Part shown: in pieces, positions 1,532 to 22,091 of the stretch
Layout: every line of letters starts with the position of its first letter
Numbering within the stretch: the stretch's first letter is position 1
IMG/VR virus record: IMGVR_UViG_3300028955_000061
Coordinates: 1 to 39,732 of that record
Strand: one strand, 5' to 3'
Source of the DNA: a virus
Lineage: Duplodnaviria; Heunggongvirae; Uroviricota; Caudoviricetes
DNA length: 39,732 bases
Notes under the pieces: model-generated
What the model was told of the DNA's origin: nothing
The model's database searches: none
Seen by the model: the letters and a program-made list of their open reading frames with translations, nothing else
Program-made: the position numbers and the translations under genes

Positions 1532-1741
1532 TTAATTTGAATACAATGCAATTCTCGAGGACTGAAGTTTCTCGCAATTAAAATTTATCAGTTTTACTTT
1601 CTGCTCTCTGGAAACGCCTGCTTCTTTTTTACCTGAGAGCATTTTTTCGCATTCTGATTTCGTTAGTTCAGATTTTGAATATCTTGTCCAGTTAGTAGGA
1701 GTGCCACCTTCCTTTTCAATAGTGGCGGTAATTTTATACAT
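1532..1741 (-). CDS. ydaC: Small Rac early protein (YdaC position), 69 aa from Met MYKITAT
   Basis: GGAGG ribosome-binding site 5 nt upstream of ATG at 1741; synteny between xis and lar; the track ORF 1532-1813 would overlap lar if started earlier. Confidence 0.55.
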   Translation of the reverse strand: MYKITATIEKEGGTPTNWTRYSKSELTKSECEKMLSGKKEAGVSREQKVKLINFNCEKLQSSRIALYSN

Positions 1742-1928: not shown

Positions 1929-1984
1929 AATTTTTCTCATAAAAAATATTTCAAGTTGGCGGTGCATTACACCGCCAGGCTGAA

Positions 1985-2794
1985 TTATTCCTCTGAATTA
2001 TCGATTACACTGTATTCCCCGGTTAATACAGAGGAATCTGCAGGATCGATTGTCAGTGGTTCCTTTTCATCCATTGATACTGCACGCTGGATCTCAATTG
2101 ATACGGGCAGATATTTGAACAGGCGACGAATAGCCGTTTTCTTTGCCATTTCTTCCCAGTGAGTTACCCACGGCCCGTTATTACCAGCTTTACTCAGGCT
2201 GCGCACCAGCTCAATCTGTTTGCGCGTCATAACTTCAAACTGAGTACCTCCGTCTTTCAGTCTTGCGACAGCATAGACGTGGGTAACCGGGGCATCTTCG
2301 TTTTCTCCCGGGCGGTGTATTAACTTTTCATCAAGGCCAAATTCGAAGCTAAACTCGTCACCTTCACGGACAACACGGGCTGACAGGCTGGCGATTTGAC
2401 CAGAACGGCGAGCCAGATCAATCATGCCGCGATAGCCAATGATTAGCTGAACGTTCTTTTTACCGCTCTTTTCGTTTTTATTACCAAAAGGCAGTAAATA
2501 TGCATGACCGAGGGCGCTACCTGGCTCAAGTCCGAGCTGTGAACACTGTACGATCGCACTGACAAAACTCATAGTGTCACAGTTTCCTAACGCCGGAACT
2601 TTACGAATTTCTGTGGTGGCGATACGGATCATACGTTCAGCCGTCATATGGCGTGGAAGAGCTGCTGCCAGTTGCTCTTTCATTGATGGCTGGTTAATAA
2701 AACTAATCACGTCGCTATTTTTAACTGCTGCTGGTGCACGGTTTCCCTGAGTTTTTTGCAGATCGGCTTTTGCGATTGGTGGTTGCTTAGTCAT
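1985..2794 (-). CDS. recT: RecT single-strand annealing recombinase, 269 aa
   Basis: Translation from [24 protein letters not shown] onward matches recalled E. coli RecT end to end; the track ORF has a 19-aa N-terminal extension. Confidence 0.95.
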
Positions 2795-5387
2795 TTGCAT
2801 ATTCCTTAGCCCAGCGGGGCAGTGATAATGTCTTAATAGCTGGCCATTCATCGGTATTCAGGCAGTCAGACAGGGTTCGCAGATTGCGGTGATATTCCTG
2901 TTGACCTGCCAGTTTTGCTTCTTCGCCCATCATGAAAATTTCAACCGGATAACGTCCGCATTCAATAGTTGTGCTGGCAACCAGAAAAACGAAAGTTGGC
3001 TGCACTCCAAACTGTGCTTCATAACCGTCACTGTAGAATGCATCCTGAACGTGATAGCGGTAGTCGTAATAAGCGGTTTTGAATCGTTGAATATCCGCCG
3101 TAGTTTTCACGTCCATGATCCAGTGAAATTCAGGGATAATTTTGTCCGGACGGCACCGACACAAAATTCCTGTTTCAGGATCTTCCCAGTAAATTGATGA
3201 TTCAGCGTGTCCGGCGCTTTCAACAAGCCATTGCCCCAGCGGCAAAGCCATAACGCTTTGATACATGAGTTCAATTTTCCGGCCTTCTTCCGCAGTGATA
3301 ACCGTTTTTCCTGTGCTTGCGCATTCCATCAGAAACGCTTTCTCTTCTTCTTTTCCGGCGTTTGTACGGCGGTTAAATTCAGGTGCTACGATAAAGCGGT
3401 TACTGAATTCTTCCGGTTCAAGTACCCGGCAGTGGAAAGCAGTTCCTAAATCGAGCGTTTTTGTCTTTGTGGTGTCCACGGGGGCATTTTTACGCCACAA
3501 ATATAGTGCCGGAGTATCAGCAATGTCATCGAGCTGAGACTTACTGATACCGGGACCCGCGTGGTAATTCTCATTCGAAATTCCGTAATAAATACCTGGC
3601 TCTATGTCTTCTACGATTACGGGATCTGCGACTTCGCCAGTTTCATCACTGCAATCGTGATGCGGATCGCTGCCAGCATTCTCATTGTGCGGATGTTCAG
3701 CGCCTTCCATTTCCTCCGGATCATTTTCCTTAGCTTCAACCTGACTCTCTTCATCGAATGTTTCCTGGTATGTTGCGTCGCCCATCACCGCACCACAGTC
3801 AGGGCAGTTATCCCCGCCAGTCTGGCCGCAGGCATTGCAGGCTATTTCCGGTTCCTGTTGCACTACTGGCTCAGGTTGATTCATATCTGGGCTGGTTTTT
3901 TCCGTTTCTGGCTGGTTCTGGTACACACAATCGCGAGTCTGGATCCCCTTTACCCATTTCGGATCGTTCGGGTCGCTAATTCCGTCAACAAATTCACCAC
4001 GTGATGCAGCAAGCAATTTATCGGCATCGACAGGATTTTTTGATGGAATGTTTTTCCGGGCTTCATGGAGTTCTGCCCGCAGTTCCTGATATTTCGCATC
4101 AACAGAATTTACCTGTGACTGAGCATCCAGCGGCTGCGTGTCCTGATGATGTTCAGTTGCGTCCGGTTCCATTGTTTCAGCTTCTCCCTGTTCAACTGCC
4201 GTTGTTCCAGATGGTTGCGGTTTTTCTTCATCATCCTGTTTTCCTTCTTCTGTTACTCGCTGCGGCATCGGGGCAGAGGAGCGACCGCAGGCAATATCCA
4301 CGATTTCCGGATCAGGGTTGGCATGATCGGTTTCAGTCAGTACTTTGTTCAGATATTCAGTGACGTGCGCGGGGATGACCTCGATCCCAATTGGTGCTTC
4401 TTTTACGGACGCAACCACGATGGCGCGGGAATAATCCAGCCCGCCAGGCATGGTGATGAATTTGTCGCGGAAAACAGAAAAGGGCGGTTTATTTTCAGCG
4501 ATAATTTCCTCAATGCGTTTAGCGTGTGCCGGATGAAGGTTATAGATGTCCAGATCCATTGAACGGGCCAGTACGCCAGTGGCTACGTCGCGCGCCAGTG
4601 ACGTCAGATCGTGTACGAAACCTTCGCCGCGATCGGTGAGGTTTCCGCCGCCAGCATTAGCACCGGAAGCCGTGCGAGTGATGTGTGAAACACGATTACC
4701 CTTCATCCACTCTTTTGTCAGCAGTCCTCGATCGGTGTAGTCAGCGTTCAGGTATGCTTCGAAAAAAGCAGTTATCAGTCCCAGGTTTGAATTACCAGGA
4801 TTAGGGAAAACTTTGTCAGTGTCACGAACCAGTTTGTGGAGTTCGCGAATTTCCAGCGGGTCGAGCAGGCTGGTTTTGTGGGAAACAGCCAGGGCAGTAA
4901 CAGCCGGTAGTTCTTCAGCCCGAGCAATGTGTAATGCCTGGAGTCCGTCGCGTGAAACGTGCGTTACCGGTTTTTCGCTGCCGTGTTGAGCAAGCCAACG
5001 AATGGGCAGTTCCTGGCCAGAAATTGGGATTAGCATATTCTCCTCAATCTCAGTCATGTCTTCGCCGTTGACGTTGGTATTGCCTTGATAATGAGCGTTG
5101 TCTGGTGCTGCTCCCGGTTTTAGTTCCCATGTCATGGAGTCTTTGCTGAGTTGATAGCGTTCACTCCAGGTAAAATCGATCTCACCTTCAGCGGGCAGGT
5201 CATTAACGACAGGAAAATTCGTGGCAACAGCTTTAAAATAGCTGCTCAGTTTTTTACCTGACTTAACGATCAGGTAGTCCAGAGTGGCACAGGTCGATTC
5301 AAAATCGTTGCTTGCCCACAGGACGACGTCAGGTTCACCGGATGATTTTTTCGCTTTCCGTAACAGGAAGAGTGGTTTTGTGCTCAT
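2787..5387 (-). CDS. recE: RecE exonuclease VIII, 866 aa
   Basis: 866-aa ORF, the length of K-12 RecE; its start overlaps recT by 8 nt, the classic recE-recT arrangement. Confidence 0.95.
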
Positions 5388-16730: not shown

Positions 16731-17771
16731 ATGGTTTCTGAAACTGTAACGATTACGTTCTATAAAATTCAAAAATGTGGTTACTACCGTTACGGTGTTG
16801 TAAGCCCTGCATTTGGTGGTTGTGACGAGTTGCTCACAGATCTTGCTTTATGGGCAGAAGGGAAAAAACTCAAACAGACAAAGACATATGAAGCAAATGA
16901 TGAGGTTTTACCTGCTTATCTTCTGGATATGAAACGTGCTGGTGACAATGTGGTTTTGTTGCTCTGGAATGAGGTTCCTTCTACAGATCAAAGTGTTCCA
17001 TCGGTTCAGGAAGATACAGAATTTGGTACGGACCCAACAGTAATACTTAATTCAATCCAGAAGGGAAGTATTCCTGGTTTTGCTACTTACTTTTGGTTTA
17101 TTCCATCCATGGATTTAGTGGCTAGCATCAAGTTTAACCATGCTTTGACGGGACAGAAGGCGATGCAATGCTATCTCTATCATTTTTTAAAACAGTCATC
17201 AAGCCACGTTGTGGCGGAAAGTGTGGAGAAGGAAGATGGCACGCATGAGGTGGTTATCAAGGGCTATAAAATTAACCCAACAGATGATGTGCTGCCAAAG
17301 AAAAAACACTATCCACAGTTCGTAGCTGGTTTAGTAAGAAATCCTGGTAAACATGAAGTTATTAGGCAGAATGCTAATATTGTTTCTAAAATTGAAAAGG
17401 TTGTTGAACTTGATGTGTCAAAACCTGACGAGTTTAGCCTGTGGCAAAAACTATTGATTAATATGAATATTAGCCATCCACAAACTGCAAATACCTCAAC
17501 AAAAATTAGATATGAACTTTCTCCGAATGTTGATATTGATGACATCGAGGGGATGATTGATGATTGGAATAAACATAGCGATACAAACTCTTGTGATTAT
17601 GGTTTTGTATTTAAAGGAGATCCAACGACATATTGGCTCAGTCGTTCATTAGCACGAACCAAATTCCACTTGAATTTGGAGCGACAGGACGCCGAGTTTG
17701 TGTCCTCGGAATCTCTTCTTTCTGAACTTGTAGGCAAAAGGGAGCTCATATTACGCGAGGCGGGAATGTAG
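16731..17771 (+). CDS. Hypothetical soluble protein, 346 aa, first gene of a low-GC cargo cassette between Q and the lysis genes; candidate defence or abortive-infection sensor/effector
   Basis: Long ORF in an AT-rich island; no signal peptide or Walker motif seen; family not recognised by eye. Confidence 0.7.
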   Translation: MVSETVTITFYKIQKCGYYRYGVVSPAFGGCDELLTDLALWAEGKKLKQTKTYEANDEVLPAYLLDMKRAGDNVVLLLWNEVPSTDQSVPSVQEDTEFGTDPTVILNSIQKGSIPGFATYFWFIPSMDLVASIKFNHALTGQKAMQCYLYHFLKQSSSHVVAESVEKEDGTHEVVIKGYKINPTDDVLPKKKHYPQFVAGLVRNPGKHEVIRQNANIVSKIEKVVELDVSKPDEFSLWQKLLINMNISHPQTANTSTKIRYELSPNVDIDDIEGMIDDWNKHSDTNSCDYGFVFKGDPTTYWLSRSLARTKFHLNLERQDAEFVSSESLLSELVGKRELILREAGM

Positions 17772-18281
17772 ATGAAAATCTTAGGTGGAATTTTTCTTAT
17801 GGTCGTTCTGATTTTTTCTGCCTATTTTGGGAAGAATGTTCCCTTCTCATCCCAGTGGCCTCTTTATGAGGCCCTGCGAACTACAGCATCCATTATCTTT
17901 GCAGTTGTGGGAGCTTGGTTTGCGATAATCTATCCTGAACGATTAAAAAAATCATTTAGAGGTGGCAGTTCAGCGAGTGAATCTAATGGCAGTGGGATTA
18001 CAAGGTTATTTACACCAATTGTACATTCTACTGCTATTTTAGCATCAGTTTTAATTATTGGCGTTGTTGCGCCATTAGTAAAACAGATACCGTTTTTTAT
18101 AGATCACAAGGACATTTTTAGGGGCGCGTCATATGCCATTTTGGTTTTTTTAACTTTATGGCAACTGTTGACAGTAATTTATAGTCTCATTGGTCCTGAT
18201 ATGGTTAAAAGACATAACTCGTTCCAAGAGAGAGAGAAAGATGCTGCTAATTCTATATTACCTGTCAATAAACGCAAATAA
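17772..18281 (+). CDS. Hypothetical integral membrane protein with four predicted transmembrane helices, 169 aa; candidate membrane effector
   Basis: ATG directly abuts the upstream stop (TAGATG) with a GAGG ribosome-binding site inside the upstream gene; four hydrophobic helices. Confidence 0.7.
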   Translation: MKILGGIFLMVVLIFSAYFGKNVPFSSQWPLYEALRTTASIIFAVVGAWFAIIYPERLKKSFRGGSSASESNGSGITRLFTPIVHSTAILASVLIIGVVAPLVKQIPFFIDHKDIFRGASYAILVFLTLWQLLTVIYSLIGPDMVKRHNSFQEREKDAANSILPVNKRK

Positions 18282-18376
18282 CATTTAAGTTAGTAAATTC
18301 GTTTCTTGAGTCGAGTCGCCATGTTGATGGTTTTGTATTTATTATAACGAATAACGGGTTCTTTTGATCATTTTAT

Positions 18377-18399
18377 CCGCCGTACTAGGCGGTTTTTTT
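18377..18399 (+). terminator. Rho-independent terminator after the cargo cassette (ccgcc-gtacta-ggcgg followed by TTTTTTT)
   Basis: Stem-loop plus a 7-T run about 95 nt downstream of the membrane-protein gene. Confidence 0.65.
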
Positions 18400-18593
18400 A
18401 TTCAGAATTTTGTTTCTTTATGGCTCGCTACGGCGGGCCTTTTTCATATCCGCGCCACGTCCGGCGTACATCGCATCAGATAACACCACACAAAAGGCAT
18501 CTGCGGGTGTCTTTGACGGGGTGTTTTTTACGGGCCGCTGGTGGCCATTTTTTGTTTCCATTACACAGCGCCCGCATCTGCGAGGTGGGGGTT

Positions 18594-18809
18594 ATGAAAT
18601 CCATGGATAAGTTAACAACAGGTGTCGCCTATGGCACCTCCGCAGGCAGTGCTGGCTACTGGTTTTTACAGTTGCTCGATAGAGTCACGCCCTCACAGTG
18701 GGCAGCAATAGGTGTGCTGGGTAGTCTGGTGTTTGGCCTGTTGACGTATCTGACAAATCTTTATTTCAAGATTAAAGAAGATAAGCGTAAGGCTGCACGG
18801 GGAGAGTAA
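18594..18809 (+). CDS. S: Pinholin, phage 21 S21-like, with dual-start motif MKSM (antiholin 71 aa, holin 68 aa from 18603)
   Basis: Translation [71 protein letters not shown] closely matches recalled S21; the track ORF has a spurious N-terminal extension. Confidence 0.85.
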
Positions 18810-18813
18810 TTCA

Positions 18814-19158
18814 ATGACTCAAAACTATGAACTGATTGTGAAAGGGATCCGCAATTTTGAGAATAAAGTTACGGTAACTTTAGCGTTACGGGACAAAAAA
18901 CGCTTTGACGGTGAAATTTTAGACCTGGACATCTCGCTGGACCGTGTTGAAGGTGCCGCGCTGGAGTTTTATGAGGCAGCAGCCAGAAGAAGCATCAGAC
19001 AGGTCTTCCTGGATGTTGCTGCCGGGTTATGTGAAGGGGATGAGCAGTCACCGGAAAAGCGCCCCATAATTTTAGAGGCGCAGGGTGTGTGGATAACCTA
19101 CAAAGGAAAACTGCCGGGAAGAATTACTGGTTCACTGAAGACTCCGCCGAAATGGTAA
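18814..19158 (+). CDS. Hypothetical protein, 114 aa, inserted between holin and endolysin
   Basis: GGAGAG ribosome-binding site before the ATG; family unknown. Confidence 0.55.
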   Translation: MTQNYELIVKGIRNFENKVTVTLALRDKKRFDGEILDLDISLDRVEGAALEFYEAAARRSIRQVFLDVAAGLCEGDEQSPEKRPIILEAQGVWITYKGKLPGRITGSLKTPPKW

Positions 19159-19396
19159 TTTCACCAGCATATTTTTCTTCCAGTAATACCGCCAGCCACT
19201 TGAAAGAATTTTGTTGTTGCTGGGACCATTTGGGGTTGAGTGATTCAAGCTGGAGCGATGCCAGTGTTGGTTGCATTTGTTCCTTGGGAATTGAGAATGC
19301 CAGATATGAAAATGCGACAGTAAGGGCATTTACATCATCCCGAAGCCTGGAAATGCAGTCGAGCAACTCCTGTAGAGAAATGGTGCTATTGTCCAT
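19124..19396 (-). CDS. Hypothetical protein, 90 aa, antisense to the late operon and convergent with 18814-19158 (3' ends overlap by about 35 nt)
   Basis: Protein-like helical translation with a GAGGA ribosome-binding site; the overlapping plus-strand ORF 19089-19421 has an implausible composition (CCCW, Ser-rich). Confidence 0.4.
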   Translation of the reverse strand: MDNSTISLQELLDCISRLRDDVNALTVAFSYLAFSIPKEQMQPTLASLQLESLNPKWSQQQQNSFKWLAVLLEEKYAGEITISAESSVNQ

Positions 19397-19501
19397 AAAT
19401 AATCCTCTCTATTGTATTTAACTATTCCTTGCCTGATTCAACAGGCCGGGACAGATAAACATATCCAGGGTTCAGAAACCGATAAATCCTGATAAATATC
19501 C

Positions 19502-20035
19502 ATGAACGCAAAAATCAGATACGGCCTGTCGGCTGCCGTTCTGGCACTGATTGCCGTCGGTGCGCCTGCGCCTGATATTCTCGACCAGTTTCTGGATGAA
19601 AAAGAAGGTAACCACACAACGGCATACCGCGATGGTTCCGGTATATGGACCATCTGTCGTGGTGCCACAATGGTGGATGGTAAGCCCGTCATACCGGGAA
19701 TGAGGCTGTCGAAGGAAAAATGCGACCAGGTTAACGCTATTGAACGTGATAAGGCGCTGGCATGGGTGGAGCGCAATATTAAAGTACCACTGACCGAACC
19801 ACAGAAAGCGGGTATAGCGTCATTTTGTCCCTATAACATTGGCCCCGGTAAGTGTTTCCCGTCGACGTTTTATAAGCGGCTGAATGCCGGTGATCGTAAG
19901 GGTGCATGCGAGGCGATTCGCTGGTGGATAAAAGATGGTGGGCGCGATTGCCGCATACGTTCAAATAACTGCTATGGACAGGTTATTCGTCGTGACCAGG
20001 AAAGCGCATTAGCCTGTTGGGGGATAGATCAGTGA
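19502..20035 (+). CDS. R: SAR endolysin (T4-lysozyme-like glycoside hydrolase with N-terminal signal-anchor-release domain), 177 aa
   Basis: N-terminal hydrophobic Ala/Gly-rich segment [18 protein letters not shown]; catalytic-region motif [17 protein letters not shown] resembling P21 R21. Confidence 0.85.
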
Positions 20036-20496
20036 GCAGAGTCGCCGCGATTATTTATGCTCTGGTTATCTGCATCATCGTCTGCCTGTCATGGGCTGTT
20101 AATCATTACCGTGATAACGCCACCGCCTACAAAGAGCAGCGCGACAAAAATGCCAGAGAACTGAAGCTGGCGAACGCGGCAATTACTGACATGCAGATGC
20201 GTCAGCGTGATGTTGCTGCGCTCGATGCAAAATACACGAAGGAGTTAGCTGATGCGAAAGCTGAAAATGATGTTCTGCGTGATGATGTTGCCGCTGGTCG
20301 TCGTCGGTTGCACATCAAAGCAGTCTGTCANNNNNNNNNNNNNNCCACCACCGCCTCCGGCGTGGATAATGCAGCCTCCCCCCGACTGGCAGACACCGCT
20401 GAACGGGATTATTTCACCCTCCGGGAACGACTGGTAATGATGCAGGCCCAACTTGAAGGTGCTCAGCAATACATAACCGAGCAGTGTTTAAAGTAA
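20032..20496 (+). CDS. Rz: Rz i-spanin (lambda Rz-like), GTG start; contains a 14-nt N run
   Basis: Translation [29 protein letters not shown]... nearly identical to recalled lambda Rz; GTGA overlap with the endolysin stop. Confidence 0.85.
20252..20437 (+). CDS. Rz1: Rz1 o-spanin lipoprotein embedded in the +1 frame of Rz
   Basis: Lipobox LVVVGC and proline-rich [26 protein letters not shown], as in lambda Rz1. Confidence 0.8.
20331..20344. other. Run of 14 ambiguous bases (N) inside Rz/Rz1
   Basis: Literal n characters; length equals the corresponding lambda segment, so the reading frame is preserved. Confidence 0.95.
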
Positions 20497-20633
20497 AATC
20501 TTAACTACAATATGATTCATTTTGATGATTGTTTCATAAGGAACAGTGAAGTAAGATCTAAGAGGAGTTAAATTTTATACAGTATAATCATAATATTGCA
20601 GCAAGGTGGTTATAATTGAAAGAATATTTAGAT

Positions 20634-22091
20634 ATGAATACATCTCATGTAAGAGTTGTTACTCATATGTGTGGGTTCCTGGTTTGGCTCTATAGTCTTT
20701 CAATGTTGCCACCAATGGTTGTAGCATTGTTTTATAAAGAAAAAAGCCTGTTCGTTTTCTTTATAACTTTCGTTATATTTTTTTGCATTGGTGGCGGAGC
20801 GTGGTATACAACTAAGAAATCTGGCATTCAATTACGTACCCGTGATGGGTTTATTATAATTGTAATGTTTTGGATTTTGTTTTCTGTTATTAGTGCATTC
20901 CCTTTATGGATTGACTCAGAACTTAATTTAACGTTCATTGATGCTCTGTTTGAAGGGGTTTCTGGAATAACAACAACAGGAGCAACTGTAATTGATGATG
21001 TTAGTTCATTACCTCGGGCATATTTGTACTATCGGTCACAGTTAAATTTTATAGGTGGTTTAGGAGTTATTGTTCTGGCGGTTGCTGTATTGCCATTATT
21101 GGGTATTGGTGGTGCAAAGCTTTATCAGTCAGAAATGCCGGGGCCATTTAAGGATGACAAACTCACTCCCCGCCTGGCCGATACGTCACGGACACTGTGG
21201 ATAACTTATTCTTTATTAGGTATTGCTTGTATTGTCTGTTATAGACTTGCAGGAATGCCTTTGTTTGATGCTATTTGTCACGGGATTTCCACAGTTTCGC
21301 TTGGTGGTTTCTCAACTCATAGCGAGAGTATCGGATATTTTAATAACTATTTGGTTGAGCTGGTGGCTGGTTCTTTTTCCCTGCTATCGGCTTTCAACTT
21401 CACTCTTTGGTATATTGTTATTAGCAGGAAAACGATAAAACCTTTAATCAGAGATATTGAACTTCGTTTCTTTCTGTTAATAGCCTTAGGGGTGATCATT
21501 GTTACCTCTTTCCAGGTCTGGCATATAGGTATGTATGACTTGCATGGAAGTTTTATTCATTCGTTTTTTCTTGCCAGCTCCATGCTCACTGATAATGGTT
21601 TAGCTACGCAGGATTATGCAAGTTGGCCCACGCACACGATAGTGTTTTTGCTGTTGTCAAGTTTCTTTGGGGGATGTATAGGTTCAACTTGTGGTGGAAT
21701 TAAGTCACTTCGATTTCTTATACTTTTCAAACAAAGCAAACACGAGATAAATCAGCTTTCTCATCCCAGAGCGTTGTTGAGTGTAAATGTAGGAGGGAAG
21801 ATAGTTACAGATCGTGTAATGAGGTCTGTATGGAGTTTCTTTTTTCTTTATACTCTCTTCACGGTGTTTTTTATACTGGTGTTAAATGGTATGGGATATG
21901 ATTTTCTTACATCATTTGCAACAGTGGCTGCATGTATTAATAATATGGGATTAGGTTTTGGGGCTACTGCATCGTCATTCGGAGTGCTTAATGACATTGC
22001 AAAATGTTTAATGTGCATAGCTATGATTCTTGGTCGCCTTGAAATTTATCCTGTTATTATATTGTTTTCAGGTTTTTTTTGGCGCTCCTAA
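20634..22091 (+). CDS. trkG: TrkG potassium uptake protein (low-GC moron), 485 aa
   Basis: Translation from MNTSHVRVVTHMCGFLVWLYSLSMLPPMVV matches recalled TrkG; multi-pass membrane protein; AT-rich codon usage. Confidence 0.9.
   Translation: MNTSHVRVVTHMCGFLVWLYSLSMLPPMVVALFYKEKSLFVFFITFVIFFCIGGGAWYTTKKSGIQLRTRDGFIIIVMFWILFSVISAFPLWIDSELNLTFIDALFEGVSGITTTGATVIDDVSSLPRAYLYYRSQLNFIGGLGVIVLAVAVLPLLGIGGAKLYQSEMPGPFKDDKLTPRLADTSRTLWITYSLLGIACIVCYRLAGMPLFDAICHGISTVSLGGFSTHSESIGYFNNYLVELVAGSFSLLSAFNFTLWYIVISRKTIKPLIRDIELRFFLLIALGVIIVTSFQVWHIGMYDLHGSFIHSFFLASSMLTDNGLATQDYASWPTHTIVFLLLSSFFGGCIGSTCGGIKSLRFLILFKQSKHEINQLSHPRALLSVNVGGKIVTDRVMRSVWSFFFLYTLFTVFFILVLNGMGYDFLTSFATVAACINNMGLGFGATASSFGVLNDIAKCLMCIAMILGRLEIYPVIILFSGFFWRS

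What the first reader, a model, noticed from the sequence alone, without database searches (positions are those of the whole stretch)
18814..19396. Convergent, 3'-overlapping gene pair inserted between holin and endolysin
In P21-type lysis cassettes the holin is normally followed directly by the SAR endolysin. Here a 114-aa plus-strand ORF and a 90-aa minus-strand ORF with its own ribosome-binding site and a plausible promoter are wedged in between, with about 35 nt of 3' overlap. A leftward gene inside the late operon could be expressed from the lysogen (moron-like) or act by antisense on lysis timing. Neither product is recognisable.
Basis: seen in the sequence. Interest (0 to 1): 0.55.

Follow-up and report, generated by a model that had tools for sequence, protein, structure and literature searches.

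The report
Reverse moron gene inside lysis cassette
Between the holin and endolysin of this E. coli prophage sit a known accessory gene (ydfR) and a real, conserved backward-facing 90-codon gene of unknown function, of the "reverse moron" type already annotated in phages HK97, HK022 and ES18.

Summary
A 114-aa plus ORF (18814-19158) and a 90-aa minus ORF (19124-19396) lie between a P21-type holin and a SAR endolysin and overlap by 35 nt at their 3' ends.

The plus ORF is recognisable: it is YdfR (Pfam DUF1327, 8e-42), a frequent resident of this junction (K-12 Qin, BP-4795, H-19B).

The minus ORF is a genuine gene:
- It stays open in all divergent lineages, whereas the rival plus-strand 110-aa frame acquires stops.
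- It has pN/pS 0.35 and a conserved GAGG ribosome-binding site.
- It has 81-97-aa relatives at 28-56% identity in other genomic contexts.

It lies on a 308-bp, lower-GC cassette (19150-19457) that collinear phages lack. That cassette occurs in about 21% of complete E. coli genomes, including the B/BL21 lineage.

Its boundary falls exactly after a -10-like TATGTT in the antisense endolysin leader. This promoter block is homologous to the one upstream of HK97 gp23, HK022 srb and ES18 gp25. In ES18 the forward partner is also DUF1327.

The product is a small acidic three-helix protein with no informative fold match. Expression in lysogens and the protein's function are inferred only. Verdict: a new member of a known kind.

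The parts
18594..18809 (+). P21-type (class II) holin, EssD-like, with the dual-start motif MKSM
   Evidence: PF04971, 4.8e-35; annotated essD in RefSeq
18814..19158 (+). ydfR: forward accessory gene of the DUF1327 family, 114 aa, read with the late operon
   Evidence: PF07041, 8e-42; phrog_406, 2.5e-67; annotated 'YdfR family protein'. K-12 YdfR binds the RNase E N-terminal half and co-purifies with RNA (PMC13232886).
19124..19396 (-). orf90: reverse-moron gene for a 90-aa, acidic (pI 4.4), three-helix cytoplasmic protein
   Evidence: ORF; WP_000370551.1; phrog_2411, 3e-59. pN/pS 0.35 and variable sites 29/22/50 by codon position. Open in all divergent lineages. Remote homologues. AlphaFold2 pLDDT 83.6, helices 8-35, 38-52 and 59-76, tail 83-90 disordered.
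19124..19158 (.). 35-nt convergent 3' overlap of ydfR and orf90. The last 8 codons and the stop of orf90 lie in conserved ydfR sequence.
   Evidence: Coordinates; alignment A1. The overlapping tail is the disordered part of the model.
19150..19457 (-). 308-bp variable cassette, from the transcribed leader to orf90 codon 82. It is absent from collinear phages and is replaced by a different cassette in PhiR5_1.
   Evidence: Alignment A1 with BP-4795, PhiR5_1 and Chlobot; slot variants. GC is 42.5% against 48% for ydfR and 52% for R. Found in 1156 of 5426 complete E. coli genomes.
19404..19407 (-). Shine-Dalgarno GAGG, 7 nt before the orf90 ATG
   Evidence: Sequence; conserved in all 21 distinct upstream sequences
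19431..19446 (-). 5'-leader hairpin GCCUG-UUGAAU-CAGGC. Divergent copies have a longer stem, CAGCCUG/CAGGCUG.
   Evidence: Fold -12.9 kcal/mol, z -2.0; alignment of homologous leaders. L164's leader matches the reverse-moron profile at E 0.004.
19458..19463 (-). Predicted -10 hexamer TATGTT. The cassette boundary falls directly after it.
   Evidence: Weight-matrix scan. It aligns with the TAnnnT position of the reverse-moron promoter block. The same block scores 5.3e-8 in PhiR5_1 and 1.2e-4 in BP-4795.
19481..19486 (-). Predicted weak -35 hexamer TTTATC, 17-nt spacer, inside the antisense endolysin leader next to a conserved TATCAGG motif
   Evidence: Prediction only.
19055..19081 (-). Terminator-like hairpin GCGCCUC-N9-GGGGCGC followed by UUUU, 43 nt past the orf90 stop and inside ydfR
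   Evidence: Fold -24.3 kcal/mol, z -2.6. Missed by the consensus scan because the loop is 9 nt. Prediction only.
19502..20035 (+). SAR-type endolysin (R21/RrrQ-like)
   Evidence: PF00959, 1.3e-24; annotated lysozyme
20032..20496 (+). Rz spanin with embedded Rz1 (20252-20437). A run of N lies at about 20330-20343.

Best explanation
Two accessory genes lie between the P21-type holin and the SAR endolysin of this Rac-like prophage.

(1) ydfR (plus strand) is a DUF1327 gene. It is a common resident of this junction and is read with the late operon.

(2) orf90 (minus strand) is a 'reverse moron'. It is a 308-bp, lower-GC cassette that was exchanged into this slot. It encodes a conserved small acidic three-helix cytoplasmic protein.

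Shown:
- The gene is real and under purifying selection.
- The cassette has discrete boundaries.
- Collinear phages lack it.
- The same slot holds an unrelated reverse gene in PhiR5_1.
- The sequence just outside the cassette boundary, which is the antisense of the endolysin leader, is homologous to the promoter block upstream of HK97 gp23, HK022 srb and ES18 gp25.

Inferred:
- orf90 is transcribed leftwards from that block (-35 at 19486-19481, -10 at 19463-19458, start near 19451).
- Its mRNA carries a 5' hairpin and ends at a hairpin plus U-tract inside ydfR.
- It is therefore made in the repressed lysogen, and convergent Q-dependent late transcription overrides it after induction.

Most speculative: by analogy with HK97 gp15 and Tab, the protein serves the lysogen, for instance by excluding or blocking other phages, rather than taking part in lysis.
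For: Coding:
- Among 38 distinct nucleotide sequences the sense frame has pN/pS 0.35 and a third-position excess, 29/22/50 variable sites.
- Divergent lineages keep orf90 open while the plus frame has stops.
- The GAGG site and the ATG are conserved.
- A profile search of 1.84 billion representative proteins finds 81-97-aa relatives at 28-56% identity.
- AlphaFold2 gives pLDDT 83.6.

Cassette:
- Breakpoints lie at 19149/19150 and 19457/19458.
- BP-4795, H-19B, mEp460 and K-12 Qin join ydfR directly to R.
- PhiR5_1 carries a different reverse gene in the slot.
- GC is 42.5% against 48-52% in the flanks.

Independence from lysis:
- Relatives lie reversed between gpM and gpL (L172), next to a terminase gene (L175), and in non-phage DNA (L174, L179).
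- orf90 is intact where ydfR is truncated.

Promoter homology:
- The best hit of the promoter profile in the whole window is 19458-19497 (-).
- The near-identical block scores 5.3e-8 in PhiR5_1 and 1.2e-4 in BP-4795.
- The covariance model of the downstream leader (R1) hits HK022, ES18 and HK97 reverse morons at 5e-18, 1e-17 and 2e-10. Their records annotate a 'reverse moron product' convergent with a 'moron product'.
- ES18's forward gene is DUF1327.

Precedents: the moron definition and HK97 gp15 (PMC3594210); Tab/anti-Tab (PMC10884400).
Against: - There are no transcription or translation data. The promoter is weak by consensus: the -35 is TTTATC, the tool's scan finds nothing, and the profile hit alone has E 0.25.
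- The promoter block is also the endolysin leader, so its conservation could serve translation of the endolysin instead.
- The window's leader lacks the two-hairpin structure of the HK97-type cassettes (5.3 bits, E 9.5).
- A few copies carry stops or frameshifts: 4 of 38 sequences and clusters P0045-P0059.
- Fold searches give nothing informative, and PADLOC gives no hit. The proposed lysogen-benefit or defence function rests on analogy only.
Confidence: 0.65

Rival explanations
1. YdfR and orf90 form a functional forward/reverse pair, like Tab/anti-Tab. The reverse gene would be made in the lysogen, as a defence or toxin-like activity. The forward late gene would neutralise it during the prophage's own lytic cycle.
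For: - Forward and reverse small genes that converge and overlap recur at these cassettes: HK97 gp22/gp23, HK022 gp22/srb and ES18 gp24 (DUF1327)/gp25.
- 44 of the 49 distinct cassettes I collected have a reverse-strand ORF of at least 40 aa ending near the cargo stop, and 37 of these overlap it.
- The geometry equals Tab/anti-Tab in JBD26.
Against: - ydfR is common without orf90.
- orf90 is intact beside a truncated ydfR.
- orf90's remote relatives pair with non-DUF1327 forward ORFs.
- The forward ORFs' shared N-termini may only reflect a shared insertion site.
- No interaction was tested.
Confidence: 0.15
2. The leftward transcription unit acts mainly at the RNA level. It would be an antisense or transcriptional-interference brake on ydfR and R expression that tunes lysis timing, and the ORF would be incidental.
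For: - The orientation is convergent and the RNA would overlap the late mRNA by at least about 400 nt.
- The predicted promoter sits in the endolysin leader, only about 15-40 nt from the R start codon.
Against: - The protein sequence is under purifying selection and is conserved in remote homologues outside lysis cassettes.
- The predicted RNA starts about 50 nt upstream of the R start codon and runs away from it, so it does not cover the R ribosome-binding site.
- Many phages do without the cassette.
Confidence: 0.1
3. The real gene is the plus-strand 110-aa frame (19089-19421), alone or as a frameshift extension of YdfR. The minus ORF would be its mirror image.
For: - The plus frame shares wobble positions with orf90 and therefore shows an equally low pN/pS, 0.30.
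- Longer YdfR variants with C-terminal extensions exist (phrog_2091, phrog_1085).
Against: - The plus frame has internal stops within the orf90 module in four divergent lineages (L161/L121, L164, L166, L168), and in its ydfR-overlapping 5' part in L169/L170 and the L112 group. orf90 has none in any of these.
- It has no Pfam or PHROG match.
- Its composition is rich in Cys and Ser.
- The extension of the long YdfR in PhiR5_1 is a different sequence.
Confidence: 0.02
4. orf90 is a decaying, non-functional remnant carried along by prophage mosaicism.
For: - Some copies have premature stops or frameshifts.
- Many host prophages are defective, for example Rac in E. coli B.
Against: - pN/pS is 0.35.
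- Length, start codon and ribosome-binding site are conserved over 20-30% amino-acid divergence.
- The family persists at 28-56% identity in other genera and contexts.
Confidence: 0.06

Closest known systems
'Moron / reverse moron' pairs of HK97 (gp22/gp23), HK022 (gp22/srb) and ES18 (gp24/gp25)
   Same: - A small reverse-strand gene sits inside a late operon and converges with a forward accessory gene. In HK97 and HK022 the two overlap; in ES18 they are separated by 4 nt.
- The promoter block is homologous.
- ES18's forward gene is DUF1327, like ydfR.
- Related phages lack the pair.
   Different: - Those pairs sit in the tail operon (I/J or M/L junctions), not between holin and endolysin.
- Their reverse proteins are different families. 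Similarity to orf90 is only marginal: hhalign probability 39% for ES18 gp25 and 16% for the Srb group.
- They have a two-hairpin leader, which the window's copy lacks.
E. coli K-12 Qin essQ-ydfR-rrrQ and the phage BP-4795 / H-19B S-ydfR-R cassettes
   Same: The order is the same: P21-type holin, then YdfR, then SAR lysozyme. ydfR and the R leader are homologous.
   Different: These have no orf90. BP-4795 keeps only the promoter and the first 25 nt or so of a reverse-moron leader, overlapping the ydfR stop. In Qin, ydfR overlaps rrrQ by 4 nt.
Tab / anti-Tab of Pseudomonas phage JBD26 (PMC10884400)
   Same: An 83-aa gene on the minus strand with its own promoter lies inside the late operon and is expressed from the prophage. 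The adjacent plus-strand late gene counteracts it.
   Different: The host, the position (between the terminase genes) and presumably the protein are different. Sequence similarity was not tested. No defence phenotype is known for orf90.
Lambda bor and HK97 gp15 (classical lysogen-expressed morons)
   Same: These are independent transcription units within or beside late genes. They have deviant GC and are expressed from the prophage for the host's benefit (PMC3594210).
   Different: bor encodes a lipoprotein located after Rz, and gp15 is a membrane protein. orf90 has no signal peptide or transmembrane segment.
Type I toxin-antitoxin loci with 3'-overlapping convergent transcripts (own knowledge, e.g. 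txpA/RatA)
   Same: Only the geometry: convergent transcripts overlapping at their 3' ends, in a prophage.
   Different: Here both partners are soluble protein genes. There is no small hydrophobic toxin and no dedicated antisense RNA.

Membership tests
Moron (Juhala et al. 2000, as summarised in PMC3594210) | Extra DNA between genes that are adjacent in related phages | tested here: met
   The 308-bp cassette is absent in BP-4795, H-19B, mEp460 and Qin.
Moron (Juhala et al. 2000, as summarised in PMC3594210) | [quoted passage not shown] | tested here: met
   42.5% against 48.2% for ydfR and 51.7% for R.
Moron (Juhala et al. 2000, as summarised in PMC3594210) | Own promoter | tested here: inconclusive
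   TTTATC-17-TATGTT is predicted. It is homologous to the reverse-moron promoter block. The consensus scan finds nothing and there are no expression data.
Moron (Juhala et al. 2000, as summarised in PMC3594210) | Own terminator | tested here: inconclusive
   A 7-bp GC-rich hairpin plus UUUU lies 43 nt after the stop, z -2.6. It lies in conserved ydfR coding sequence.
Moron (Juhala et al. 2000, as summarised in PMC3594210) | Expressed from the repressed prophage | not testable with these tools
   Needs RNA-seq or TSS mapping of a lysogen.
HK97 gp23-type reverse-moron cassette | Reverse gene in a late operon, convergent with a forward accessory gene | tested here: met
HK97 gp23-type reverse-moron cassette | Promoter block TATCAGG-N15-CCCTGG-TAnnnT directly upstream of the transcribed cassette | tested here: met
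   The top profile hit in the window is at 19458-19497 (-), E 0.25 on its own. The near-identical block scores 5.3e-8 in PhiR5_1 and 1.2e-4 in BP-4795.
HK97 gp23-type reverse-moron cassette | Two-hairpin 5' leader (loops GUGGGA and GAUGGCUGAUUA) | tested here: not met
   The covariance model R1 gives 5.3 bits, E 9.5, at 19386-19443. Only a single hairpin is present.
YdfR / DUF1327 (plus ORF) | Match to PF07041 above the gathering score | tested here: met
   141.8 bits against a cutoff of 25, E 8e-42.
phrog_2411 (minus ORF) | Full-length match to the family profile | tested here: met
   3.1e-59, residues 1-90 on profile positions 1-90.
P21-type lysis cassette | Class II pinholin, SAR endolysin and embedded Rz/Rz1 | tested here: met
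   PF04971 and PF00959, ORFs, RefSeq annotation. SAR function is inferred from the hydrophobic N-terminus only.
Known anti-phage defence systems (PADLOC) | Match of either protein to a PADLOC model | tested here: not met
   No hit for YdfR or orf90.
Type I toxin-antitoxin | Small hydrophobic toxin plus antisense RNA | tested here: not met
   orf90 is acidic and soluble, pI 4.4, GRAVY -0.2. No Rfam RNA is found.
Tab / anti-Tab | Sequence or structural homology to Tab, and a tail-assembly block | not tested
The resemblance is architectural only.

The most novel reading that the evidence does not exclude
orf90 would be one cargo of a widespread, exchangeable class of 'reverse-moron' cassettes in enterobacterial lambdoid phages.
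- The cassettes share a promoter block and, in the canonical form, a structured and possibly pseudoknotted 5' leader RNA that has no Rfam family.
- That leader shows 8 covarying pairs across 33 sequences. It occurs in HK97, HK022, ES18 and 63 IMG/VR loci.
- The cassettes carry at least 18 BLAST-distinct small-protein families at several late-operon junctions.
- Under this reading the cargoes are lysogen-expressed conflict proteins (defence or exclusion). The forward partners, such as YdfR, are their late-expressed counterparts, as in Tab/anti-Tab.
- The endolysin leader of P21-type cassettes would then be a domesticated reverse-moron promoter.
Probability: 0.25. Interest if true: 0.7.

Novelty: new member of a known kind. 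Interest (0 to 1): 0.4.

Why it matters
The gene sits in about one in five complete E. coli genomes, including the B/BL21 laboratory lineage, and it is everywhere labelled 'hypothetical'. Placing it among reverse morons gives it a testable expression model: a leftward promoter in the endolysin leader that is active in lysogens. It also yields a short list of phenotypes to try, namely phage exclusion and interaction with YdfR or RNase E.

The by-product may matter more. The classical HK97, HK022 and ES18 reverse morons share a covarying 5' leader and promoter that flank many different small cargo genes. This offers a handle for finding lysogen-expressed accessory genes systematically. It is also a candidate new cis-regulatory RNA.

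Tried and rejected
- Rfam scan of 17500-21000 at E<=1: only chance-level hits.
- PADLOC on both proteins: nothing.
- Plus-frame gene or a -1 frameshift extension of YdfR: rejected. The frame is broken in homologues and has no family match. I saw only a weak A-AAA-C slip site in the sequence.
- The in-cassette promoter TTGAAT-19-TACAAT scored best in my scan. I rank it second for three reasons. Its -10 lies 14 nt from the ATG, which would remove the Shine-Dalgarno from the mRNA. Its -35 is the hairpin loop. It is not conserved in divergent copies.
- Homology between orf90 and the PhiR5_1 'DUF1823' reverse protein: none.
- A superfamily link between orf90 and Srb-like or ES18 gp25 cargoes: marginal only.
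- The upstream palindrome as a LexA box: rejected, because the spacing is CTG-N9-CAG and not N10 (sequences).
- The forward ORFs' conserved N-terminus as proof of a dedicated partner gene: not accepted. It may only mark a common insertion site.
- Searches that returned nothing: the search for related loci with P0036 and with alignment A4.
- Literature searches that returned nothing relevant: accession numbers, motif strings and 'srb'. The Pas sRNA preprint concerns loci upstream of the holin, not this slot.
- The covariance model R1 does not detect the canonical leader at orf90 in the window.

Full report
**Context.** The window is an intact Rac-like lambdoid prophage of E. coli. The 1.1 kb around the finding is 100% identical to many E. 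coli chromosomes. The RefSeq annotation of one of them reads: antiterminator Q, two hypothetical genes, essD (holin), 'YdfR family protein', 'hypothetical protein' on the minus strand, lysozyme, lysis protein, trkG.

**Observation.**
- The two ORFs are at 18814-19158 (+, 114 aa) and 19124-19396 (-, 90 aa). They overlap by 35 nt.
- They are flanked by a PF04971 P21-type holin (4.8e-35) and a PF00959 lysozyme with a SAR-like N-terminus.
- The minus ORF has GAGG 7 nt before its ATG.
- So the description is accurate.

**The plus ORF is a known family.**
- It matches DUF1327/YdfR at 8e-42.
- holin-ydfR-endolysin is the order in K-12 Qin, in BP-4795, and in H-19B, the Stx1 phages and mEp460.
- A 2026 study reports that K-12 YdfR binds the catalytic N-terminal half of RNase E and co-purifies with RNA. 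Overproduction had little effect on the transcriptome (PMC13232886).

**Is the minus ORF a gene?**
- It matches phrog_2411 full length (3e-59).
- It has 64 clusters of homologues in E. coli, E. albertii and Shigella. They keep 90 codons down to about 70% identity.
- I collected 38 distinct nucleotide versions. Outside the overlap, variable sites fall 29/22/50 on codon positions 1/2/3, and pN/pS is 0.35.
- The rival plus frame 19089-19421 shares its wobble positions with orf90, so it shows a similar ratio (0.30). That statistic therefore cannot decide between them.
- ORF integrity does decide. Four divergent lineages (L161/L121, L164, L166, L168) have stops in the plus frame within the orf90 module, and a fifth (L169/L170) has one in the part that overlaps ydfR. 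All five keep orf90 open. Stops in orf90 occur only in singletons that lie close to intact copies.
- The plus frame has no Pfam or PHROG match.
- A profile search of 1.84 billion representative proteins found relatives of 81-97 aa at 28-56% identity. They share the motif ELLD.IS.LR..VN.L.VAFSYLAFS.
- With these relatives in the alignment, AlphaFold2 gives pLDDT 83.6. The model is a three-helix bundle (8-35, 38-52, 59-76) with a disordered tail, 83-90. That tail is the part encoded in the overlap with ydfR.
- The protein is acidic (pI 4.4) and soluble.

**A discrete, exchangeable cassette.**
- Alignment with BP-4795, PhiR5_1 and Chlobot puts the breakpoints after 19149, two codons before the ydfR stop, and before 19458.
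- BP-4795 has 15 nt between these points. The window has 308 nt.
- PhiR5_1 has about 620 nt there. This extends YdfR to 211 aa and carries an unrelated 86-aa reverse gene.
- The cassette has 42.5% GC against 48% and 52% for its neighbours.
- It occurs in 1156 of 5426 complete E. coli genomes, but in few isolated phages; of those I examined only Chlobot carries it.
- It is present in the E. coli B/BL21 lineage, in a Rac remnant that has lost Q and pR'.
- In L165 the first two-thirds of ydfR are replaced while orf90 is intact.

**Relatives outside the lysis cassette.**
- P0069 lies reversed between tail genes gpM and gpL.
- P0067 lies reversed next to a large terminase gene.
- P0076 converges with an 85-aa gene.
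- P0073 and P0065 are in chromosomal, non-phage surroundings.
- The protein is therefore not tied to lysis.

**Link to the classical reverse morons.**
- The remote relatives are preceded by a conserved element. In order it contains a GC hairpin, a TATCAGG-containing imperfect palindrome, CCCTGG plus a TAnnnT hexamer, GGTTCAGCCC, a hairpin with loop GUGGGA, a hairpin with loop GAUGGCUGAUUA, a Shine-Dalgarno sequence and the ATG.
- A pattern built from two of its motifs finds 63 IMG/VR loci.
- Their downstream ORFs are 65-169 aa (nearly all under 100 aa) and fall into 18 BLAST-distinct families.
- Both hairpins covary: 8 pairs change on both sides, and 0 of 500 shuffles reach the observed score.
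- The possible pseudoknot (UCAGCC with GGCUGA) is invariant. That is partly because those motifs were my search anchors.
- Rfam has no such family.
- BLAST against annotated phages then showed that this element is the upstream region of HK97 gp23 ('reverse moron product', convergent with gp22 'moron product', between I and J), of HK022 srb/gp23, and of ES18 gp25.
- The covariance model confirms this at 2e-10, 5e-18 and 1e-17.
- ES18's forward partner gp24 is itself DUF1327 (3.8e-7).

**How the window's copy relates to that element.**
- The best hit of the promoter-part profile in the whole window, on either strand, is 19458-19497 (-). This abuts the cassette boundary, but E is only 0.25 on its own.
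- The near-identical block in PhiR5_1 continues into a recognisable first hairpin and scores 5.3e-8.
- The 'empty' BP-4795 site retains the promoter and the start of the leader, overlapping the ydfR stop, and scores 1.2e-4.
- A divergent orf90 locus (L164) scores 0.004 with the full profile.
- So the antisense of the endolysin leader is homologous to the reverse-moron promoter, and the cassette boundary falls directly after its -10-like TATGTT (19463-19458).
- The window's own leader is not a canonical one (5.3 bits). It has a single hairpin at 19446-19431.
- A hairpin plus UUUU at 19081-19055, 43 nt past the stop, could terminate the leftward RNA.

**Mechanism.**
- Shown: the gene is real, and the cassette structure, its distribution and the promoter homology are as described above.
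- Inferred: leftward transcription starts near 19451 in the lysogen, and convergent late transcription overrides it after induction.
- Speculative: the protein benefits the lysogen, as HK97 gp15 does (PMC3594210). Alternatively it forms a defence/counter-defence pair with the forward gene, as in Tab/anti-Tab (PMC10884400).
- An RNA-level brake on lysis is less likely, because of the protein-level selection and because the family occurs outside lysis cassettes.

**Verdict.** This is a new, uncharacterised member of a known kind: a moron / reverse-moron pair at an unusual site. Interest is moderate. The conserved structured leader of the canonical reverse morons is a separate lead worth following.

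Noticed in passing
window 16731-17771 (+) and 17772-18281 (+): The two genes between antiterminator Q and the holin, which is the stx/moron slot, match the PADLOC candidate defence system PDC-M18: A at 4.6e-197 and B at 3.4e-75. Their GC is low, 37-40%.
   Followed up: partly
L246 1867-1942, L247 1867-1943, L248 1867-1943; L180-L242; L172 2920-2995: A conserved 5' leader of about 76 nt lies upstream of HK97 gp23, HK022 srb, ES18 gp25 and 63 IMG/VR loci. It has two covarying hairpins and a possible pseudoknot, has no Rfam family, and precedes many unrelated small ORFs.
   Followed up: partly
L003 (BP-4795) 1544-1607, minus strand: The 'empty' ydfR-R junction keeps a reverse-moron promoter and the first 25 nt or so of its leader. 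The last codons of YdfR (..TPPLA*) are encoded antisense to that leader remnant.
   Followed up: partly
window 1931-1990 (-): Weak match to the reverse-moron leader model (16.1 bits, E about 0.03): UUCAGCC plus a hairpin, upstream of the 93-aa ORF 1813-1532 near the integrase end.
   Followed up: no
window about 20330-20343: A run of 14 N inside Rz/Rz1. It appears as X in the translations.
   Followed up: no
L245 (E. coli T7Express, B lineage) 1939-3838: The Rac remnant of E. coli B keeps essD-ydfR-orf90-lysozyme-Rz next to ydaF, but has lost the immunity-to-Q region. This makes it a natural test bed for late-promoter-independent expression of orf90.
   Followed up: no
L165 (reverse complement 874-955): Where ydfR is truncated, a short ORF (MMNSETTNQRINDLEKES) follows the holin. 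It resembles the LEQRVEALEK N-terminus shared by the forward ORFs at reverse-moron sites.
   Followed up: no
L179 2985-3127: A chromosomal orf90 relative (P0065) lies about 170 nt upstream of an isrN sRNA gene (Rfam 134 bits) and next to an AIDA-type autotransporter gene.
   Followed up: no
window 18377-18546 (+): Three terminator-like hairpins lie upstream of the holin, presumably the pR'/tR' leader region, with only chance-level Rfam hits. Pas sRNAs are reported at the equivalent position in other prophages.
   Followed up: no
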